From positions 1 to 57,318 of the forward strand of contig CAZSMD010000001.1 in assembly GCA_964608145.1 (NCBI GenBank): 57,318 bases of DNA, read 5' to 3'. Below, in pieces: positions 4,324 through 56,359 of this stretch. The stretch is from an uncultured Candidatus Saccharibacteria bacterium (GTDB taxonomy: Bacteria; Patescibacteriota; Minisyncoccia; Phycocordibacterales; EsbW-18). Below the pieces are notes generated by a model. It was not told where the DNA came from and searched no databases. It was given only the letters and a program-made list of their open reading frames with translations. A program made the position numbers and the translations under genes. Position 1 is the first letter of the stretch, and each line of letters begins with the position of its first letter.

Positions 4324-4358
4324 AAAAACCCGCCCTCCTTTCGGAGAAGCGGGTTTTT
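4324..4358. terminator. hairpin terminator between the RRM gene and rpsP
   Basis: AAAAACCCGC...GCGGGTTTTT stem with an inner CUCC/GGAG. A second 12-bp hairpin lies at 4428-4458, right after the RRM stop. Confidence 0.55.
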
Positions 4359-4458
4359 GAATAGGTTTTACTGGCGACGTAGGGCGAGGCAGCGAAAATG
4401 TATTTTCATTGCCGAGCCCGAGGAGCCAGAAAGACTTTTGGGCTTTTGCCTAAAAGTC

Positions 4459-4755
4459 TTACCAGCGGTCGTTTCGATCACCACCAAAGCTCTTTCGAGG
4501 ACGATCCTCTTTCGGACGAGCTTCGTTAACAGTGAGCGTGCGGCCTTCGAAGTCCTTACCATCGAACATTTCGATGGCCTTCTGTGCGCCTGCTTCATCT
4601 GCCATCTCAACGAAACCGAAACCACGTGAGCGACCTGTCATCTTGTCCATGATGATGTTCGCTGACGCTACTGCTCCAGCTTGTGAGAAGTGATTCAAGA
4701 GACCGTCTTCGGTTGAGCTGTAAGGCAAACCTCCGACGTACAACTTTGTTGACAT
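4459..4755 (-). CDS. RRM-type RNA-binding protein
   Basis: MSTKLYVGGLPYSSTEDGLLNHF...RGFGFVEMADEAGAQKAI contains the RNP2 and RNP1 motifs. Start trimmed to M7. Confidence 0.88.
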   Translation of the reverse strand: MSTKLYVGGLPYSSTEDGLLNHFSQAGAVASANIIMDKMTGRSRGFGFVEMADEAGAQKAIEMFDGKDFEGRTLTVNEARPKEDRPRKSFGGDRNDRW

Positions 4756-4918
4756 TGTGTTTTGTGAGCACAACTAATGAATACTTGCGAGACGACCTTC
4801 TTTCGAACGTACGCACAGATGTTGTGCACACAATGAAAAGATAAATACTCGCACGAGAACACTATAGCACAGAGGTGCTCAAAAGTAAATCAAATCAGGG
4901 ATATGCCAAACAGTGGCT

Positions 4919-10458: not shown

Positions 10459-12759
10459 TTATTTTGCAACCCGCTCCGCTTCGTCAAACGAGACGGAGAG
10501 CACTTGTGACGCCGCGTCGGCGCTCATAGTGACGCCGTAAAGCACGCCCGCGCGGGACATCGTCTCACGGTTGTGGGTGATAAGTATCAGCTGTGTTTGC
10601 TGCGCCAGGCTTTCAATCATGTCGCCGTAGCGTTTTGAGTTTGCCTCGTCGAGCGCCGCATCAGTTTCGTCGAGAATAACGAACGGCGGCGGATTAACCT
10701 GCGACATCGCAAAGATAAGCGCGATTGATGTGAGCGCGCGCTCGCCGCCGGAGAGCATCTCCAGACTGCGCACTTTCTTGCGGGGCAATGACACATGAAT
10801 CTCAACGCCGAACTGCTCCTCCTTTTCCTCATCTTCCTCCGGTTCCGGTTCGGTCATTGCATCATCTTCGAGCGTCCGCAGAGCTTCCCTGGTACGCGGT
10901 TTCTCCTTAACGATAGCAAGCGCCGCGTCGCCGCCGCCGAACATGAGCGAGAAGAAGCTGGTAAATGCCGTGTTGATTTTTGAAACACCGCGCTCGAACT
11001 CATCCGCAAGTTTTTGATTCAGTTCCTGGATAAGAGCAGTGAGCGCATCGGCAGACGCGCGCAAATCGGCGATTTCACGTTCCAGGAATGCGTCACGCTC
11101 GCTGACCTCTTTGTGCTCCTTGAGAAGCTCCTCGGAACCCGACAAGCCGCTGTCTTCAAGGCGGATTTTCATGCGCTCAATGACGCGCTTACGCTCGTGT
11201 TGCACGTGCCGGTCTTCCTCGGCAGCCTCCGCGGCAAGCCCCGGCATAAGATCTTTGAACCCGACTGCAGAAAGTCCTGCGAGAGCTCCGGCTTCAGCAA
11301 GTTCGCGCTTGAGTTCTTCGGTTTCAAGCGTGAGTGCGTCTTCCTCGCCGGAAATCGTCTGCAGGGCAAGGCGCACTTCCTGCTGTTCGTTTGAAAGAGC
11401 AAACATGTTGCGCTCAAGTTCGCGTCCCGACACGCGGTCTCCTTCAATTTTCTGCTGCAGGGCGCGATACGTATCCGCGAGCGTCTTTTCCCGCTCTTCC
11501 ATGTGTGTACGTTTTTTCAGAAGCTCGTCTTTTTGCTTTTCGAGCACCGCAAGCTCTTTCATAAGCTCATCGCTCGCGTCGTGCGAAACACCGTCTTCAC
11601 GGAAGCGCGCGATAAATGCCCCGACCCGCTGACGCAGTGCGCGGACAAACTCCTTCAGACGTCCGACGTCATTTTCAGCTTCGAGCTGTGCGAGATCATC
11701 CGAAACCGTTGCAACAAATTCTGAAACCGTCTTGAGCGGAACTGTAGTTGCCTGTCCTTCCGCTTCGCGTTCCCGCTCGCGCTCCAGCTGTTTCTTGGTC
11801 GCTGCAATTTCACCCTCGACACGGCCGACCGATTCGGTCACGCCGTCTTTTTCCTTCCGCAGCTCGCGGAGATTTGCCTCGCTTAGAAGCAGATCCGTTG
11901 TGTCGGTGTCTTTTTTCTCAAGCTTCTCAAGTTCCTTGCGCGCATCAGCAAGCGACGCATCAAGCGTCCGCATGCGCTCAAGAAGCGGATGCTTCCTGGC
12001 GTTCAGTTCTTCCGTCATGCGTGCGACATAGAGATGTTCGCGCGCAAAGTAGTCCCGATATTTATCCACGAGCTCACCGGCAAGCTCCTGCGCCTTCTCG
12101 ACTTTAGCGACCTGCTTTGCCAAAAACACGAGATGCGGCTTGATTTCCCGGCGGATGCTCTCGGCTTTTTCGAGGTTTTCGTTCGTCTTTTCAAGCTTGC
12201 GCAGGCTTTCCTCTTTTTTGTACTGGTAGATTTTGAGCCCGAGCGCGTCCTCAATCATCGCGCGGCGTTCGCGCGGATTGACCGAGAGGATGCGGTCCGC
12301 TTCACCCTGCGAAATAATATGGTGCCCTGATGCGCCGATATGCGCACCGGCGAGCAGTTCAATGATGTCTTTGAGACGCACCGGCGAGCCATTCAACTGG
12401 TATTCACTCGATGCGTCGCGGTGAATAATGCGTTCAATCGTGACCTCGTCGAAATCTATGTCAAAAAGACGCTTTGTCCCTTCTCCGGTCGCATGCGGCG
12501 TATTGTCGAACACAAGTTTTGCGCTTGCGCGGTTTGATTTGGGCACCGTGCGCGAACCGTTCCAGATAAGGTCTTCCGTGCGCTTACCGCGCATGGACTT
12601 CATTGACTGTTCACCCAACACAAAACGAAACGCTTCGGCGACGTTTGACTTTCCGGAACCGTTGGGACCCACAATGCCCGTAATCGACGTTTTAAAAACG
12701 AGGGTTACTTTTTTCGCAAACGATTTAAATCCTGAAACTTCAAGCGATTTGAGATACAT
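10459..12759 (-). CDS. smc: SMC-like chromosome segregation ATPase, 766 aa, no recognisable hinge domain
   Basis: MYLKSLEVSGFKSFAKKVTLVFKTSITGIVGPNGSGKSNV (Walker A); C-terminal LSGGERALTSIALIFAM...PFVILDETDAALD (signature and Walker B). Only heptad-rich sequence lies between them. Start trimmed to M63. Confidence 0.88.
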   Translation of the reverse strand: MYLKSLEVSGFKSFAKKVTLVFKTSITGIVGPNGSGKSNVAEAFRFVLGEQSMKSMRGKRTEDLIWNGSRTVPKSNRASAKLVFDNTPHATGEGTKRLFDIDFDEVTIERIIHRDASSEYQLNGSPVRLKDIIELLAGAHIGASGHHIISQGEADRILSVNPRERRAMIEDALGLKIYQYKKEESLRKLEKTNENLEKAESIRREIKPHLVFLAKQVAKVEKAQELAGELVDKYRDYFAREHLYVARMTEELNARKHPLLERMRTLDASLADARKELEKLEKKDTDTTDLLLSEANLRELRKEKDGVTESVGRVEGEIAATKKQLEREREREAEGQATTVPLKTVSEFVATVSDDLAQLEAENDVGRLKEFVRALRQRVGAFIARFREDGVSHDASDELMKELAVLEKQKDELLKKRTHMEEREKTLADTYRALQQKIEGDRVSGRELERNMFALSNEQQEVRLALQTISGEEDALTLETEELKRELAEAGALAGLSAVGFKDLMPGLAAEAAEEDRHVQHERKRVIERMKIRLEDSGLSGSEELLKEHKEVSERDAFLEREIADLRASADALTALIQELNQKLADEFERGVSKINTAFTSFFSLMFGGGDAALAIVKEKPRTREALRTLEDDAMTEPEPEEDEEKEEQFGVEIHVSLPRKKVRSLEMLSGGERALTSIALIFAMSQVNPPPFVILDETDAALDEANSKRYGDMIESLAQQTQLILITHNRETMSRAGVLYGVTMSADAASQVLSVSFDEAERVAK

Positions 12760-27801: not shown

Positions 27802-27806
27802 TGCTG

Positions 27807-27881
27807 TGACCTCATCGGGATTTGAACCCGAGTTTGCGCCGTGAGAGGGCGCCGTCCTGGACCAGGCTAGACGATGAGGCC
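27807..27881 (-). tRNA. tRNA-Glu (anticodon CUC), no encoded CCA
   Basis: Minus strand GGCCUCAUCGUCUAGCCUGGUCCAGGACGGCGCCCUCUCACGGCGCAAACUCGGGUUCAAAUCCCGAUGAGGUCA. 7-bp acceptor, anticodon stem GCGCC/GGCGC, loop CUCUCAC, T arm UCGGG-UUCAAAU-CCCGA. Confidence 0.93.
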
Positions 27882-27889
27882 AATTTTTT

Positions 27890-27997
27890 ACAGAACACCT
27901 AATCATTCTGCCTTGGTGCACTCTCACGGCACCGTGAGAGGGGTGAGACAGTGCGGGGCACTGTCGAACCACGGACCTTGGCGAACAATGAGGCCGT
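27890..27997 (-). ncRNA. tRNA-Glu-derived structured RNA (degenerate tandem tRNA copy or novel small RNA; outer arms also resemble 4.5S RNA), cotranscribed with tRNA-Glu
   Basis: ORF-free. Starts GGCCUCAU, the same as tRNA positions 1-8, 114 nt upstream of the tRNA. Shares the 11-mer CCCUCUCACGG with the tRNA anticodon arm. Perfect hairpins at 27947-27965 and 27921-27940. Own promoter. Confidence 0.55.
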
Positions 27998-28003
27998 GCG
28001 GTG

Positions 28004-28032
28004 ATAATACCAAAAAACTCCCATGTTTCCAA
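28004..28032 (-). promoter_or_regulatory. sigma70-type promoter TTGGAA-17-TATTAT driving the structured RNA plus tRNA-Glu
   Basis: Minus strand: TTGGAA (28027-28032), 17-nt spacer, TATTAT (28004-28009). The predicted start falls 0-2 nt before GGCCUCAU. Confidence 0.6.
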
Positions 28033-54754: not shown

Positions 54755-55012
54755 CTAGAAGGAGGAGCTGGCGAGGACGAAGGTCGCGGCCTGTCGCCGC
54801 GGGGTGATGAAGAGCTTCGCCAGGGCCGTCCTGATGCGGACGGGCTTGGCTCCCGTCGGCGCCCTCAGGCACCTGGAGCTGCGCCTTCCGCCCTTCTTCA
54901 GGTCGCAGGCCTCTGCGCAAAGCGCGTCGTAGTTCCGGTGACGCCGGCGTTCCTTCTCCCACCACCGTCGCTGCTTCTCCGCACGACGAGCCTTCTCCTG
55001 GAGCTTGTCCAT
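54755..55012 (-). CDS. hypothetical Arg-rich basic protein (85 aa) with extreme GC3
   Basis: AGGAGG 5 nt upstream of ATG: MDKLQEKARRAEKQRRWWEKERRRHRNYDALCAEACDLKKGGRR... About 74 of 85 third positions are G/C by my count. Consensus promoter upstream. Confidence 0.55.
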   Translation of the reverse strand: MDKLQEKARRAEKQRRWWEKERRRHRNYDALCAEACDLKKGGRRSSRCLRAPTGAKPVRIRTALAKLFITPRRQAATFVLASSSF

Positions 55013-55064
55013 CTCGTCCTCCTGGGCAATGAGGTCTTGAAACCTCGGTTCAGCTTCTGTTCCT

Positions 55065-55092
55065 ATTATAGCACCCCCAACCTATTTGTCAA
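55065..55092 (-). promoter_or_regulatory. consensus sigma70 promoter TTGACA-16-TATAAT
   Basis: Minus strand TTGACA (55087-55092) and TATAAT (55065-55070). Confidence 0.65.
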
Positions 55093-55109
55093 GTCCCCTC
55101 TCCAGAACA

Positions 55110-55137
55110 AGATAACTTGGTTTTTGCCAACTTATCT
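55110..55137. promoter_or_regulatory. palindromic operator candidate just upstream of the -35 box
   Basis: AGATAACTTGG-TTTTTG-CCAACTTATCT. 11-nt arms with one central mismatch. Confidence 0.45.
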
Positions 55138-55157
55138 CAAAATCTCTAGCAATGCTT

Positions 55158-55219
55158 CGCGGAGCAGTGCCAACAGAAAAACACCCCCTTGGGGTGCTTT
55201 TCGTGCTGACTGCTCCGCG
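55158..55219 (-). terminator. nested hairpins: inner intrinsic terminator (55176-55202) enclosed by an 11-bp outer stem
   Basis: The inner hairpin on the minus strand is GAAAAGCACCCC AAG GGGGUGUUUUUC followed by a U-rich tail. The outer stem pairs CGCGGAGCAGT (55158-55168) with ACTGCTCCGCG (55209-55219). Confidence 0.55.
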
Positions 55220-55223
55220 GGTA
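55212..55223 (-). repeat. 12-nt direct copy of the tRNA-Asn 3' end
   Basis: GCTCCGCGGGTA also occurs at 55292-55303, the tRNA acceptor 3' strand. An inverted partial copy lies at 55158-55168. Confidence 0.8.
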
Positions 55224-55256
55224 AATACGTTTTCCCGTGTTCACTTCGGTATAAAT

Positions 55257-55286
55257 AAAAAAGCCCACAAGGGCTCTTTTATTTTT
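55257..55286. terminator. hairpin terminator immediately downstream of tRNA-Asn
   Basis: AAAAAAGCCC ACAA GGGCTCTTTTATTTTT. Confidence 0.65.
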
Positions 55287-55292
55287 CCTCAG

Positions 55293-55364
55293 CTCCGCGG
55301 GTAGGATTCGAACCTACGACCAACTCCTTAACAGGGAGTCGCTCTACCACTGAGCTACCGCGGA
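55293..55364 (-). tRNA. tRNA-Asn (anticodon GUU), no encoded CCA
   Basis: Minus strand UCCGCGGUAGCUCAGUGGUAGAGCGACUCCCUGUUAAGGAGUUGGUCGUAGGUUCGAAUCCUACCCGCGGAG. Anticodon loop CUGUUAA. Confidence 0.93.
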
Positions 55365-55525
55365 ATATTGTGTCGTGGACACATACCACTATTTCGAGGT
55401 GCTCATATCTGAGCTACTACGACAAGCGAGGATGAACGCGAAAGCCGTGCTTTCATGTTCTTCGAGCGCCGTCGGAGAAAGGCCGGCTCTCGCCGGACTT
55501 ACCGCGGAATATTGTGGTGCATCCG
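55365..55525 (-). ncRNA. hairpin-rich ~150-nt leader of tRNA-Asn containing partial copies of the tRNA 5' end and D arm
   Basis: The 17-mer TACCGCGGAATATTGTG occurs at 55356-55372 and 55500-55516. CTGAGCTAC occurs at 55350-55358 and 55409-55417. Hairpins at 55483-55496, 55458-55479, 55434-55460, 55401-55414 and 55370-55382. No ORF. Confidence 0.5.
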
Positions 55526-55531
55526 AGCAAA

Positions 55532-55560
55532 ATTATACACGGGGAGGTTTATAAAACAAC
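55532..55560 (-). promoter_or_regulatory. promoter with extended -10 (TGTATAAT) for the leader plus tRNA-Asn
   Basis: Minus strand TATAAT (55532-55537) preceded by TG. TTGTTT-like -35 lies 16 nt upstream. Confidence 0.5.
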
Positions 55561-55589
55561 CCTTAAAGAGACGCAAGACCTGACTACTT

Positions 55590-55624
55590 CCTCCTCTCTG
55601 CTACACTGTCCGCCAGAGAGGAGG
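55590..55624 (+). promoter_or_regulatory. 11-bp hairpin sequestering the Shine-Dalgarno of the downstream nuclease gene
   Basis: CCTCCTCTCTG (55590-55600) pairs perfectly with CAGAGAGGAGG (55614-55624). GGAGG at 55620-55624 is the only SD for the TTG start at 55634. Confidence 0.6.
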
Positions 55625-55633
55625 TGAAACGAC

Positions 55634-56359
55634 TTGGAGACCGAGTCACAAGAAAACATCGTCGTCGGAGACAAAACCACATTCGTCGGTCAGTTCTTCG
55701 AAGCGGTTGGGCATCACATTCTCGGCGGCGATTTGTCGCGTAACGAGAACGGAGATATCTGCCTCTGGCGAACCGAAACCGCAGTTGAGGTCAAGTCATC
55801 GGGCGTACAATCCTCGTACGGATTTCGCCTGAGCGTCGAGCAGATTGAGCATTACGAGCGTGTCAGCGTGTTCCCCTTCAGCCGTGCGTGGTACATGTTC
55901 TTTGCATATCGCAACCACTCACGAAAAAATGGGGGCGGTAAGCGTGCGAGCGAGCTCTCTCTGCATACGACTCCCGCGGCAATCAGAGCATACCTCGCAG
56001 ACGCCATAGTGTGGTGTCTCCTTGTTGACCTCTCCATCATCACGCGCTGGAGAGAGACAAGGCCGCATTCCACAAAGAGCATTCTGGGACACCTCGGAGC
56101 CGAAACGGTGGACCTCAAGTGTCCGTACGTGCACGAATTTGTGAACGGCGGGCTCGCCGACGGACTCAAAGGGCTCAACCTTGATCCCGCGTCGTACGGC
56201 ACGCTTTTCGGTAACGTGAAAGCCACTTTCCAACCTGATCTTTTCACAGAACATCTCGTGCACTTTCCCATGACGGCAGTCCTGCCGTCTTCAGAAATCC
56301 GTTCGGTTCAACGCATGCTGAGCCGGCGCGGATTTCGCCTCCGACAAGGAGTGCCCTGA
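55634..56359 (+). CDS. orphan PD-(D/E)XK (restriction-endonuclease-like) protein, 241 aa, TTG start
   Basis: FFEAVGHHILGG...NGDICLWRTETAVEVKSS has D-x(n)-E-x-K geometry. No adjacent methyltransferase. Own terminator. Confidence 0.6.
   Translation: METESQENIVVGDKTTFVGQFFEAVGHHILGGDLSRNENGDICLWRTETAVEVKSSGVQSSYGFRLSVEQIEHYERVSVFPFSRAWYMFFAYRNHSRKNGGGKRASELSLHTTPAAIRAYLADAIVWCLLVDLSIITRWRETRPHSTKSILGHLGAETVDLKCPYVHEFVNGGLADGLKGLNLDPASYGTLFGNVKATFQPDLFTEHLVHFPMTAVLPSSEIRSVQRMLSRRGFRLRQGVP

What the first reader, a model, noticed from the sequence alone, without database searches (positions are those of the whole stretch)
55158..55560. tRNA-Asn is nested inside partial copies of its own 5' and 3' ends, with a five-hairpin leader
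The architecture parallels the tRNA-Glu locus. An extended -10 promoter (TGTATAAT) drives a ~150-nt ORF-free leader and then the tRNA. A 17-mer covering 8 nt upstream plus tRNA positions 1-9 (TACCGCGGAATATTGTG on the plus strand) occurs at 55356-55372 and again 144 nt upstream at 55500-55516. A D-arm block, CTGAGCTAC (plus GCTC), recurs at 55409-55417. Between these two copies lie three back-to-back hairpins totalling ~85 nt: CCGGC-GAGA-GCCGG, an 8-bp stem, and a 12-bp stem. They look like an insertion into a decayed tRNA-Asn copy. Downstream, the tRNA 3' end GCTCCGCGGGTA (55292-55303) is repeated at 55212-55223. An inverted copy (55158-55168) pairs with that repeat region, enclosing a terminator hairpin. 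The outer 5' copy (UCCGCGG) and outer 3' copy (CCGCGGA) could themselves form an acceptor-like helix around the whole unit. End duplications at a tRNA usually mark integrase att sites, but here the repeats are only 80-144 nt apart and no integrase is present.
Basis: seen in the sequence. Interest (0 to 1): 0.7.

Follow-up and report, generated by a model that had tools for sequence, protein, structure and literature searches.

The report
tRNA-Asn gene flanked by self-copies
A normal asparagine tRNA gene in an ultrasmall (Patescibacteria/CPR) bacterium has had its original start and end pushed outwards by insertions that carry a small hairpin-forming repeat element; the layout is inherited across related species, so it is real and mildly unusual, but it is built from known kinds of events.

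Summary
The window is a chromosomal contig of a Patescibacteria (CPR) bacterium.

- **Relatives.** One has the plain gene: promoter, tRNA, terminator. Seven others share the window's leader element, and three of those also share its trailer.
- **Outer copies.** The outer 5' copy sits where the ancestral tRNA start lay, next to the conserved promoter. The outer 3' copy keeps the ancestral terminator.
- **Leader.** The "three hairpins" are one ~85-nt structured element (55417-55501, minus strand), inserted after GGTA into a decayed partial copy of the tRNA's first ~30 nt. 19 of its 29 base pairs show compensatory changes across nine copies.
- **Second copy.** Another copy lies at 4371-4446, at the stop codon of an RNA-binding-protein gene. 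Relatives show both filled and empty states of that site.
- **Trailer.** In relatives the trailer, including the first terminator hairpin, matches the same element in inverted orientation. The window's own match is weak.
- **Not found.** No integrase or transposase turned up in the roughly 60 open reading frames scanned, and no Rfam family matches the leader.

Best reading: partial duplications of the gene ends plus a new REP/MITE-like structured repeat, probably co-opted as leader and terminator. A helix joining the two outer copies is not supported. Moderate interest.

The parts
55532..55539 (-). Extended -10 promoter element TGTATAAT of the tRNA-Asn transcription unit.
   Evidence: Read from the sequence. 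TGTATAATTTTG is also upstream of the plain tRNA-Asn gene in L002, and TGTATACTTTTG in L005. The simple sigma-70 scan did not call it because it has no -35 hexamer. The transcription start is inferred, not mapped.
55500..55516 (-). Outer 5' copy: 8 nt of upstream sequence plus tRNA nt 1-9 (CACAATAT|TCCGCGGTA). Interpreted as the ancestral start of the tRNA gene.
   Evidence: Exact 17-nt repeat. It has the same spacing to the conserved promoter as the tRNA start in insertion-free relatives.
55417..55501 (-). Structured ~85-nt repeat element ('module'). P1 hairpin 55479-55500. Closing helix P2 55467-55477 with 55417-55428. Conserved internal loop GCG-CUC-G / CCU-CGC. P3 hairpin 55431-55463. It is inserted after GGTA, and the insert ends in ...GTAGTA.
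   Evidence: Covariance models R1 and R2 score it at 89.1 and 78.5 bits. R1 recovers four homologues that were not used to build it, with E from 1.6e-9 to 9e-3. 87.6% of cells are paired, and 19 of 29 pairs have changes on both sides, reached by 0 of 500 shuffles.
55401..55417 (-). Decayed copy of tRNA nt 7-25 (GTAGCTCAGATATGAGC). The D-arm has been remodelled into a 5-bp hairpin with a GAUA loop.
   Evidence: 9-nt exact repeat of the D-arm block. The same piece is conserved in L005, L024 and L045. In L031 and L036 the piece that follows the module is tRNA nt 18-32 instead.
55365..55400 (-). Spacer of the leader. It contains a small hairpin GTGTC-CAC-GACAC (55370-55382) and the inner 8 nt CACAATAT.
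   Evidence: Sequence and fold. It is poorly conserved against L005.
55292..55364 (-). Functional tRNA-Asn (anticodon GTT). There is no encoded CCA and no intron.
   Evidence: ARAGORN. Rfam RF00005, 75.7 bits, full length.
55224..55291 (-). Trailer insertion, read as an inverted, diverged copy of the module. Its long A/U-flanked hairpin (arms 55253-55266 and 55271-55284) serves as the first intrinsic terminator.
   Evidence: Inverted repeat I1 and a terminator-like site. Homologous trailers in L005 and L024 (two units) match model R2 on the opposite strand, with E from 5e-4 to 7e-3. The window copy scores only 10.7 bits, E 1.3.
55212..55223 (-). Outer 3' copy of tRNA nt 62-73 (TACCCGCGGAGC). 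Interpreted as the ancestral end of the gene.
   Evidence: Exact 12-nt repeat. The same 12-mer sits in the same place in L005, L031 and L024 (twice). Like the 3' end of plain genes such as L011, it is followed by A... and a terminator.
55158..55219 (-). Ancestral 3' flank. The second terminator hairpin (about 55182-55196) is enclosed by an 11-nt inverted repeat, 55209-55219 with 55158-55168.
   Evidence: L011, a relative with no trailer insertion, has the same arrangement directly after its tRNA: CCGCGGAGCAG - terminator - ACTGCTCCGCGG.
4371..4446 (-). Second copy of the module in the window. It begins at the stop codon (TGG TAA) of an RRM-type RNA-binding-protein gene (ORF 4459-4773, minus strand) and is followed by a terminator.
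   Evidence: R1 scores it at 20.1 bits, E 0.009, before it had been used in any model. R2 scores it at 58.2 bits, but this copy is in R2's seed. An orthologous copy in L057 has E 3e-9. The same site is empty in L054/L055, L056 and L058.

Best explanation
This is an ordinary, intact tRNA-Asn(GTT) gene in a Patescibacteria chromosome. Its original 5' and 3' ends have been displaced outwards by two old insertions, and each insertion carries a fresh copy of the displaced end, so the gene stays whole.

On the 5' side, the ancestral promoter and tRNA nt 1-9 are followed by a partial tandem duplicate of the tRNA's first ~30 nt. That dead copy was then hit, after the tetranucleotide GGTA, by an ~85-nt non-coding structured repeat element.

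On the 3' side, an inverted and more degenerate copy of the same element lies between the tRNA's 3' end and a 12-nt copy of that end. On the bottom strand the 3' end reads ...CCGCGGGTA|GG, the same kind of site. Behind the 12-nt copy sit the ancestral terminator and its inverted repeat.

How it works today (inferred, not shown): the extended -10 promoter drives a leader of about 160 nt made of stable hairpins. RNase P cuts at the 5' end of the inner tRNA. Transcription stops at the hairpin plus U-tract supplied by the inverted element. The outer 3' copy and second terminator are a relic that would be reached only by read-through.

The element behaves like a REP/REPIN- or MITE-like small repeat. 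It has no coding capacity and a preferred target. It occurs at more than one locus per genome, and the RRM site shows filled and empty states in relatives. Its helices co-vary and its internal loop is invariant. It has therefore probably been co-opted as an RNA stability, processing or protein-binding module in the tRNA leader and in the 3' UTR of the RRM-protein mRNA.
For: Shown:
- The repeats are real and not due to chance.
- The contig is chromosomal and belongs to Patescibacteria: DnaE, SMC, RNase R, BipA, PBPs and aaRS are present, and homologues are named Zambryskibacteria, Nomurabacteria and similar.
- L002 has an empty site: TGTATAAT, 33 nt, tRNA, then a single terminator.
- L005, found through the neighbouring protein and not through the repeat, has the same layout. 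Its outer copy ATATTCCGCGGTA is exact, the module core is 100% conserved, and P1 and P3 differ by compensatory changes.
- Six more metagenomic loci carry the same module. In L024, L045, L049 and L034 it follows tRNA position 9. In L031 and L036 it follows position 20, again after GGTA, and the tRNA-like sequence resumes in register.
- Model R1, built from 4 sequences, recovers the 4 others and a second window copy.
- Covariation: 87.6% of cells paired against 34-46% when partners are slid; 19 of 29 pairs changed on both sides; 0 of 500 shuffles reach these values.
- The copy at the RRM gene lies after CGCTGGTA. Relatives L054, L056 and L058 read CGCTGGTAA|AACC with no insert. L057 carries the insert, 93% identical in P2-P3, against 81% for the coding sequence and 59% for the downstream spacer.
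- The trailers of L005 and L024 match R2 on the opposite strand with E from 5e-4 to 7e-3, and they are the next-best hits after the leader modules in 29 kb.
- L024 has two tandem trailer units, and L034 has two tandem leader modules.
- L011 shows the native arrangement of 3' end, terminator and inverted repeat without any insertion.
- No integrase or transposase was found in the roughly 60 ORFs scanned.
Against: - The order of events (duplication first, then element insertion) is inferred, not observed.
- The window's own trailer matches the module only weakly (10.7 bits, E 1.3). Calling it an inverted module rests on homology with the L005 and L024 trailers.
- The element has no terminal inverted repeats, and no mobilising enzyme was identified, so 'mobile' rests on three insertion contexts and one filled/empty comparison.
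- Only 2-3 copies occur in 57 kb, far fewer than for classical REPs.
- The covariation counts come from an alignment fitted to the model's structure and from only 9 sequences.
- That L002 and L054, and likewise L005 and L057, each come from a single genome is inferred from the shared sample.
- No transcript data exist. Promoter use, the processing sites and termination at the first hairpin are all assumptions.
- Perfect conservation of the outer 13-17-nt copy in lineages whose other leader parts have diverged is not explained by a pure relic model.
Confidence: 0.6

Rival explanations
1. The direct repeats are attL/attR-type scars. Integrative elements (prophages or islands) recombined with the tRNA-Asn gene, regenerated the gene end from their attP, and were later almost completely deleted, leaving 68-nt and 127-nt remnants.
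For: Direct repeats of a tRNA 3' end are the classical footprint of tRNA-targeted integration (established knowledge). Other Patescibacteria tRNA-Asn loci show longer 3' partial copies at larger distances. Examples are L044/L052 (18 nt at about 170 nt), L029 and L038 (about 180-220 nt), and L030, which has a perfect 3' half 17 nt downstream. GGTTCGA(A/G)CC-like motifs recur downstream of the gene in L009, L015, L017 and L021. The inserted segment brings its own terminator, as attP flanks often do.
Against: No integrase was found in the roughly 60 ORFs scanned in the window. The same tiny remnant sizes are shared by divergent lineages. Known integrases replace the 3' part of a tRNA gene, so a duplicated 5' end with the element upstream of the gene is not the known pattern. 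The 5' insertion contains a decayed tRNA D-arm, which simple att recombination does not produce. The trailer matches the leader module in inverted orientation. The same module sits at a non-tRNA site with only a 3-4-nt repeat.
Confidence: 0.15
2. The tRNA-derived leader is a functional cis-regulator of tRNA-Asn maturation. The copy of the 5' acceptor strand competes with the true 5' strand for the 3' acceptor strand, or pairs with the outer 3' copy. This would gate folding or RNase P processing, or make the released leader a sponge for tRNA-Asn.
For: The outer 13-17-nt copy is exact in the window, in L005 and in L017. The last two were found independently of the repeat, and their other leader parts have diverged. 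Thirty-five metagenomic loci have a 5' copy 81-141 nt upstream of tRNA-Asn, some in tandem arrays. In two other leader families, 10-16 nt are exactly antisense to tRNA nt ~23-38. In one of these (L026, L037, L040, L044, L051) the segment follows species-specific changes of the tRNA. The window's tRNA-Glu leader has a 16-nt, 88% antisense match to its own anticodon arm.
Against: The window's tRNA-Asn leader has no antisense segment of 7 nt or more apart from the acceptor copy. The metagenome hits were selected for an exact outer copy, so their conservation is biased by the search. A conserved terminator separates the two outer copies, and L045 and L034 lack the outer 3' copy. Competition for the acceptor stem would be harmful unless it is regulated. 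There are no expression or processing data. Plain genes without any leader exist in close relatives (L002, and 9 of 10 loci).
Confidence: 0.15
3. The partial copies are repair scars of repeated double-strand breaks in the tRNA gene. The breaks could come from a homing endonuclease that targets the group I intron insertion site in the anticodon loop, and would be mended by misaligned, microhomology-primed synthesis that yields tandem partial duplications.
For: Relatives carry group I introns between nt 35 and 36 of tRNA-Asn: L005, L011, L012, L024, L028, L036 and L049. L030 has a perfect 3'-exon copy that starts exactly at that site. Many 5' pseudo-copies end in or just after the anticodon arm and are palindromised around GTTAAC. 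Several loci duplicate 50-60 nt of upstream spacer together with the 5' part (L023, L028, L035).
Against: The introns are 200-260 nt and encode no endonuclease. The window has no intron. The ends of the pseudo-copies vary (nt 9 to about 43) and do not coincide with one site. The 12-nt 3' copy in the window starts at nt 62, not at the anticodon loop.
Confidence: 0.08

Closest known systems
REP / REPIN / BIME elements of proteobacteria, and similar small structured repeats (ERIC, RUP, Correia, Rickettsia palindromic elements)
   Same: Short (about 80 nt) and non-coding. It folds into stable hairpins, sits outside coding sequence at gene ends, and occurs at more than one locus in the genome. Its helices evolve by compensatory change. 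It can supply or flank terminators and is plausibly co-opted for RNA stability. A GTA(G) motif lies at the junctions, which recalls the GTAG of REPs.
   Different: Copy number is very low (2-3 in 57 kb). There is no RAYT or other transposase in the contig. It has no terminal inverted repeats and no simple REP doublet. The host is Patescibacteria. It has a conserved asymmetric internal loop (GCG-CUC-G / CCU-CGC). Two of its sites lie inside copies of a tRNA gene.
tRNA-gene att-site duplications left by integrative elements (attL/attR direct repeats of the tRNA 3' end)
   Same: A direct repeat of the last 12 nt of the tRNA, with the functional gene end supplied by the inserted DNA and the original end displaced downstream.
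   Different: Only 68 nt lie between the repeats. There is no integrase. There is also a duplicated 5' end, which known tRNA-targeting integrases do not produce. The inserted DNA is related to a repeat element found at a non-tRNA site.
Palindrome-associated transposable elements (PATEs) derived from IS200/IS605
   Same: Insertion immediately 3' of a specific tetranucleotide (GGTA). The right end carries a related tetranucleotide (AGTA in 8 of 9 copies). There are subterminal hairpins, no terminal inverted repeats and no coding capacity.
   Different: No TnpA or TnpB was detected. A 3-4-nt repeat (GTA/GTAA) could equally be a target-site duplication, which IS200/IS605 elements do not make. The two 'ends' pair with each other (P2) rather than forming independent end hairpins.
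Functional tRNA spacer RNAs (for example the 3' external transcribed spacer of E. coli glyW-cysT-leuZ, which acts as an sRNA sponge) and pseudo-tRNA fragments from partial duplications in organelle genomes
   Same: Non-tRNA sequence that is co-transcribed with a tRNA and released by tRNA-processing enzymes may have a function of its own. Partial tRNA copies next to intact genes are known by-products of duplication.
   Different: Here the spacer is a 5' leader built from a dead copy of the same tRNA plus a repeat element. No trans target is known.

Membership tests
tRNA (Rfam RF00005): the inner gene | Full cloverleaf that scores above the family threshold, with a readable anticodon | tested here: met
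   75.7 bits against a gathering score of 29, model positions 1-71. ARAGORN calls tRNA-Asn with anticodon GTT.
tRNA (Rfam RF00005): the leader or the outer copies as a second tRNA | A second cloverleaf, or a tRNA-like match, in the leader or across the outer copies | tested here: not met
   No further tRNA or tRNA-like hit in 55000-55700 at E up to 10. ARAGORN finds only one gene there.
Known cis-regulatory leaders, riboswitches or ribozymes (any Rfam 15 family) | A match of the leader to a curated covariance model | tested here: not met
   Only sub-threshold hits that are plausibly chance, and none lies within the leader 55365-55530.
Integrase-mediated tRNA att-site duplication | Direct repeat of the tRNA 3' portion flanking the inserted DNA | tested here: met
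   12-nt exact repeat with 80-nt start-to-start spacing.
Integrase-mediated tRNA att-site duplication | A tyrosine or serine recombinase gene and element cargo between or next to the repeats | tested here: not met
   Only 68 nt lie between the repeats. There was no integrase or transposase Pfam hit in the roughly 60 ORFs scanned.
MITE (non-autonomous DNA transposon) | Terminal inverted repeats | tested here: not met
   The left end (AGTCCGG...) and the reverse complement of the right end (CTACGACAAG...) are unrelated. The pairing is internal (P2).
MITE (non-autonomous DNA transposon) | Short target-site duplication, with filled and empty sites in relatives | tested here: inconclusive
   At the RRM locus the empty site reads TGGTAA|AACC and the filled site reads TGGTA[A...CAGTA]AAACC. 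GTA or GTAA is repeated, but this could instead be the element's own end.
MITE / REP-like dispersed repeat | Several copies per genome in unrelated contexts | tested here: met
   The window has two significant copies (55417-55501 and 4371-4446) and a weak inverted one (55222-55300). Copies lie at three kinds of site in relatives. The genome-wide copy number is unknown.
REP/REPIN | An associated RAYT (TnpA_REP) gene in the genome | not testable with these tools
   Only one 57-kb contig of the genome is available, and no such gene was found in it.
IS200/IS605-derived PATE | Insertion 3' of a fixed tetranucleotide, and a related tetranucleotide at the right end | tested here: met
   All nine copies follow GGTA. 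Eight of nine end in AGTA and one in TGTA.
IS200/IS605-derived PATE | A cognate TnpA (Y1 HUH transposase), and independent hairpins at the left and right ends | not tested
   No TnpA was seen in the window. The hairpin layout (P1 plus the nested P2/P3) differs from the usual separate left-end and right-end hairpins.
Group I intron in a tRNA | A catalytic intron in the anticodon loop | tested here: not met
   The window's tRNA is uninterrupted. Introns occur only in relatives: RF00028 in L011 and L012, and by inspection in L005, L024, L028, L036 and L049.

The most novel reading that the evidence does not exclude
In many Patescibacteria, tRNA genes carry leaders built from a truncated copy of the tRNA itself, and these leaders are functional. 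The copy of the 5' acceptor strand could pair with the tRNA body in the precursor. So could the segments seen in other families and in the window's tRNA-Glu leader, which are exactly antisense to the anticodon arm and follow the tRNA's own sequence changes. Such pairing, or pairing with mature tRNA after release, would give a self-encoded check on tRNA folding, RNase P processing or availability. The ~85-nt structured module would be the protein-binding or stability part of this device, and it is shared with the mRNA of an RRM-type RNA-binding protein that may bind it.
Probability: 0.15. Interest if true: 0.8.

Novelty: new variant of a known kind. Interest (0 to 1): 0.5.

Why it matters
The finding yields a new structured RNA/DNA element of Patescibacteria with good covariation support and no Rfam counterpart. 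It also gives a concrete covariance model that can be run over all CPR genomes.

tRNA-Asn genes in this poorly known phylum are often preceded by dead copies of their own 5' part, sometimes in arrays. At least one such architecture has been inherited across lineages under structural constraint.

If the leader proves to be functional, this would be a case of a tRNA gene regulated or protected by a derivative of itself, in organisms with very reduced regulatory repertoires. If it does not, the locus is still a clean example of how an essential single-copy gene tolerates insertions through duplication of its ends. It is also a caution for annotating tRNA fragments as att sites.

Tried and rejected
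- **Phage origin.** A DNA search of the phage collection matched only the tRNA itself, and Pfam shows housekeeping chromosomal genes. Rejected.
- **Known RNA family.** An Rfam search of the leader at E up to 10 found nothing there.
- **Exact tRNA search.** The full 73-nt tRNA has no exact match in the GTDB species genomes. A degenerate 5'-half pattern then gave 10 loci.
- **MAFFT plus RNAalifold on the eight modules.** This gave a poor structural alignment (-5.9 kcal/mol). I replaced it with single-sequence folds, a hand-annotated 4-sequence seed and covariance-model realignment.
- **RNAduplex of whole leaders against trailers.** Uninformative, because the long sequences pair everywhere.
- **Frequency in other tRNAs.** The fetched loci contain only 5 non-Asn tRNAs, too few to estimate it.
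- **Antisense segments in the window's tRNA-Asn leader.** None of 7 nt or more apart from the acceptor copy.
- **Literature.** Searches on CPR tRNA introns and on partial tRNA duplications found nothing relevant.
- **Split, permuted or nested functional outer tRNA.** Considered and rejected. The outer D-arm, anticodon and T-arm parts are decayed, a terminator lies inside, and ARAGORN and Rfam see nothing.
- **Discontinuous group I intron.** Considered and rejected. Only about 40 and 68 nt are available, and there is no RF00028 signal in the window.
Full report
**1. What is in the sequence**

On the minus strand the region reads as follows:
- TGTATAAT (55539-55532), then about 23 nt.
- CACAATAT|TCCGCGGTA (55516-55500), the outer 5' copy.
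- An ~85-nt hairpin block (to 55417).
- GTAGCTCAGATATGAGC (55417-55401), a D-arm-like piece, then a ~36-nt spacer that ends again in CACAATAT.
- tRNA-Asn(GTT), 55364-55292.
- A hairpin with A- and U-tracts (arms 55284-55271 and 55266-55253).
- TACCCGCGGAGC (55223-55212), the outer 3' copy.
- A second terminator hairpin, enclosed by the 11-nt inverted repeat 55219-55209 / 55168-55158.

The 17-mer and the 12-mer each occur only at these two places in 57 kb, and none is expected in shuffled sequence. The region folds with z = -9.2 against shuffles. The only correction is that the hairpins are nested, not back-to-back.

**2. Where the window comes from**

Pfam finds DNA polymerase III alpha, SMC, RNase R, RNase III, BipA, two PBPs, MreB/MreC, a Mur ligase, several aminoacyl-tRNA synthetases, TrmD, S16, GreA and RRF. 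It finds no phage, integrase or transposase domain in the roughly 60 ORFs tested.

The phage collection matches only the tRNA. Homologues of neighbouring proteins come from metagenome-assembled genomes named Candidatus Zambryskibacteria, Nomurabacteria, Moranbacteria and Paceibacteria. The ten species genomes that share the tRNA's 5' half are all Patescibacteria. The window is therefore a chromosomal contig of a CPR bacterium. The whole contig is 57318 nt, as listed for P0001.

**3. Related loci: empty and occupied states**

I looked up homologues of the divergently transcribed 241-aa ORF (55634-56359).

L002 has a plain tRNA-Asn gene: TGTATAATTTTG, 33 nt, tRNA, then one terminator.

L005 has the full architecture of the window:
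- The same promoter motif (TGTATACTTTTG).
- An exact outer copy, ATATTCCGCGGTA.
- A homologous hairpin block and the same D-arm-like piece.
- The tRNA, here interrupted by a group I intron between nt 35 and 36.
- The A/U-flanked hairpin.
- The same 12-nt outer 3' copy, then a second terminator.

Because L005 was found through a protein and not through the repeats, it is an unbiased confirmation that the layout is inherited.

A pattern scan of species genomes with the tRNA 5' half gave 10 loci. Nine are plain and one (L017) has an unrelated leader that also starts with an exact 14-nt copy of the tRNA start. L011 is plain, but it shows the native 3' arrangement CCGCGGAGCAG - terminator - ACTGCTCCGCGG. 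This is what follows the outer 3' copy in the window.

A metagenome scan for TCCGCGGTA, 81-141 nt, TCCGCGGTAGCTCAG returned 35 loci. Six of them (L024, L045, L031, L036, L034, L049) carry the window's hairpin block. In L024, L045 and L031 the outer copy lies about 36 nt behind a conserved CAGCTAGAATGC promoter motif, the same spacing as the tRNA start in the plain genes L011 and L016.

From this I conclude that the outer 5' copy is the ancestral gene start and the outer 3' copy the ancestral gene end. Everything between each outer copy and the tRNA is inserted DNA.

**4. The hairpin block is a structured repeat element**

Single-sequence folds of the eight blocks give the same architecture:
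- A small hairpin, P1.
- A long closing helix, P2, ending in GCG/CGC.
- An asymmetric pyrimidine-rich internal loop (CUC opposite U or CU).
- A long hairpin, P3.

A covariance model built from four of them recovered the other four, with E of 1.6e-9 for L049 and 1e-3 to 9e-3 for L045, L031 and L024. It also found a further copy in the window at 4371-4446 on the minus strand.

On the nine-sequence model-based alignment:
- 87.6% of cells form standard pairs, against 34-46% when the 3' partners are slid by 1-3 columns.
- 19 of 29 pairs have changes on both sides.
- No shuffle out of 500 reaches the observed values.

The alignment is fitted to the structure, so these numbers lean towards it. Even so, the helices differ plainly in sequence. 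P2 is CGAC/GUCG in the window, AAACAC/GUGUUU in L049, CAAC/GUUG in L034 and UGCC/GGCA in L024.

A full-sensitivity scan of the window with the rebuilt model finds just the two strong copies, at 78.5 and 58.2 bits. Rfam has no match.

**5. Evidence that the element is an insertion with a preferred site**

In six loci the block follows tRNA position 9 (GCGGTA|) and the tRNA-like sequence resumes with GTAGCTCAG. In L031 and L036 it follows position 20 (GTGGTA|) and the sequence resumes with GTAGAGCGGCTCGC. So the same element lies at two different GGTA|G sites of a pre-existing partial tRNA copy spanning nt 1 to about 32.

The second window copy starts at the stop codon of an RRM-type RNA-binding-protein gene (..CGC TGG TAA), with a terminator behind it. 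Relatives show both states of this site:
- L054/L055, L056 and L058 read CGCTGGTAA|AACC.. or the equivalent, with no insert.
- L057 has the insert (E 3e-9).

All nine copies follow GGTA, and eight end in AGTA. This fits either a 3-4-nt target duplication (GTA or GTAA) or IS200/IS605-style end logic. There are no terminal inverted repeats.

The L057 and window copies at the RRM gene are 93% identical in P2-P3. The coding sequence is 81% identical and the downstream spacer 59%. L057 has lost P1. The two copies within the window are only distantly alike. This pattern argues for purifying selection on P2-P3, not for recent spread.

The sample that gave L002 (plain tRNA gene) also gave L054 (empty RRM site). 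The sample that gave L005 also gave L057 (filled). This suggests, but does not prove, that a genome either has the element at both loci or at neither.

**6. The trailer**

The trailers of the window, L005, L031 and L024 are homologous. Each has:
- An A-tract/hairpin/U-tract whose stem co-varies.
- A CGAGCGAGG-like motif.
- The 12-mer TACCCGCGGAGC.

L024 has two such units in tandem.

With model R2 the best hits after the seven leader modules, in 29 kb, are the opposite strands of the trailers:
- L005, E 5e-4.
- The two L024 units, E 1.3e-3 and 7e-3.
- A second tandem module in the L034 leader, E 1.2e-3. Its closing strand is the tRNA's own TCCGCGG.

The window's trailer scores only 10.7 bits. 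I read the trailer as an inverted, degenerate copy of the same element. Its P3 has become, or doubles as, the terminator.

This orientation makes sense. CCGCGG is a palindrome, so the bottom strand of the tRNA 3' end (GCTCCGCGGGTA|GG) presents the same kind of site as the top strand of the 5' end (TCCGCGGTA|GC).

**7. How the locus most likely arose and works**

Shown: the ancestral ends lie outside, inserted DNA lies inside, the element is structured and occurs at several sites, and the layout is inherited in at least eight lineages.

Inferred:
- A partial tandem duplication of the 5' part took place. Such duplications are common in these bacteria, sometimes including 50-60 nt of spacer or forming arrays, as in L023, L025, L028, L033, L035 and L046.
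- This provided a dead copy in which a GGTA site could be hit without killing the single tRNA-Asn gene.
- A corresponding event occurred at the 3' end.

Today the unit is probably transcribed from the extended -10 promoter as a ~160-nt hairpin-rich leader plus the tRNA. RNase P would cut it, and transcription would end at the first hairpin. The outer 3' copy and second terminator would be relics. None of this has transcript support.

The conserved helices and invariant loop suggest that the element has been co-opted. It might act as a stability or processing determinant, or as a protein-binding site. The RRM protein next to the second copy is an obvious candidate, but this is speculation.

**8. 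Rivals**

- Decayed att scars explain the 3' repeat. They do not explain the 5' one, the decayed D-arm, or the element's presence at a non-tRNA site.
- A regulatory "anti-acceptor" leader is not excluded. The outer copy is exact in independently found relatives. Other leader families carry 10-16-nt segments exactly antisense to tRNA nt ~23-38, and in one of those families the segment follows species differences. The window's tRNA-Glu leader has a 16-nt antisense match to its anticodon arm. Against this, the window's tRNA-Asn leader has no such segment, and plain genes are common.
- Break-repair scars linked to the group I intron site fit some loci, such as the perfect 3'-exon copy in L030. They do not fit the breakpoints in the window.

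**9. Comparison with known systems and verdict**

The element works like, and most resembles, REP/REPIN/BIME-type or PATE-like small structured repeats. It fails the MITE criterion of terminal inverted repeats, and no mobilising enzyme is known. It should therefore be called a new REP/MITE-like family, not a member of any named one.

The nested look of the tRNA gene is a variant of well-known partial tRNA duplications. The novelty is moderate: a new structured element in CPR bacteria and a recurrent, inherited, tRNA-derived leader architecture. Interest is 0.5. It would rise if the leader is shown to act on the tRNA.

Noticed in passing
window 4371-4446 (minus strand), with ORF 4459-4773 and a terminator at about 4325-4355: A second copy of the structured element lies in the 3' UTR of an RRM-type RNA-binding-protein gene, starting at its stop codon. 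It is conserved in L057 (93% in P2-P3) and absent from the same site in L054, L056 and L058. It may be an autoregulatory or stabilising 3' UTR element.
   Followed up: yes
window 27806-28010 (minus strand): The tRNA-Glu(CTC) leader contains a copy of tRNA nt 1-11 (27985-27995, 10 of 11) and a copy of the anticodon arm (27929-27942, 13 of 14). It also has a 16-nt segment (27915-27930) that is 88% complementary to the tRNA's own anticodon arm. So a second tRNA in the window has a leader derived from itself, here with an antisense piece.
   Followed up: partly
L026, L037, L040, L044, L051 and L025, L027, L029 (leaders of tRNA-Asn; coordinates): Two other leader families carry 10-16 nt exactly antisense to tRNA nt ~23-38. 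In the first family the segment follows species differences of the tRNA: CAGCCGGTTGC, CAGCCAGTTGC and CAGCGGGTTGC. It matches the tRNA better than it matches the leader's own sense arm. An inserted hairpin in that family also co-varies. This hints at selected leader-tRNA pairing.
   Followed up: partly
L005 about 556-781, L011 4491-4730, L012 3986-4287; also L024, L028, L036, L049: Group I introns interrupt tRNA-Asn(GTT) between anticodon nt 35 and 36 in several Patescibacteria. Rfam RF00028 matches L011 and L012; the others were judged by inspection. Intron presence varies independently of the leader. I do not know of tRNA-Asn as a reported host of bacterial group I introns (from memory, not checked).
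   Followed up: partly
L025 6518-6815, L033 14667-14790, L046 503-748, L024 about 11000-11200: There are tandem arrays of leader units ([tRNA 5' part + spacer], two to three copies) and, in L024, of trailer units (two copies). Some are nearly identical, which shows that partial duplication at tRNA-Asn is ongoing in these lineages.
   Followed up: no
window 55634-56359 (plus strand): This 241-aa ORF, divergent from the tRNA, is a conserved Patescibacteria hypothetical protein (49 homologues, no Pfam domain). It usually lies next to dnaB. In L002 and L005 a thioredoxin-DsbD-AhpC gene set separates it from tRNA-Asn, and that set is missing in the window, so there has been a deletion or rearrangement next to the leader. 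It contains a D...E-V-K motif reminiscent of PD-(D/E)XK nucleases (seen by eye only).
   Followed up: no
L009, L015, L017, L021 (downstream of tRNA-Asn): GGTTCGA(A/G)CC T-loop-like motifs recur in the first few hundred nt downstream of tRNA-Asn in several genomes. They may be remnants of repeated integration at this tRNA.
   Followed up: no
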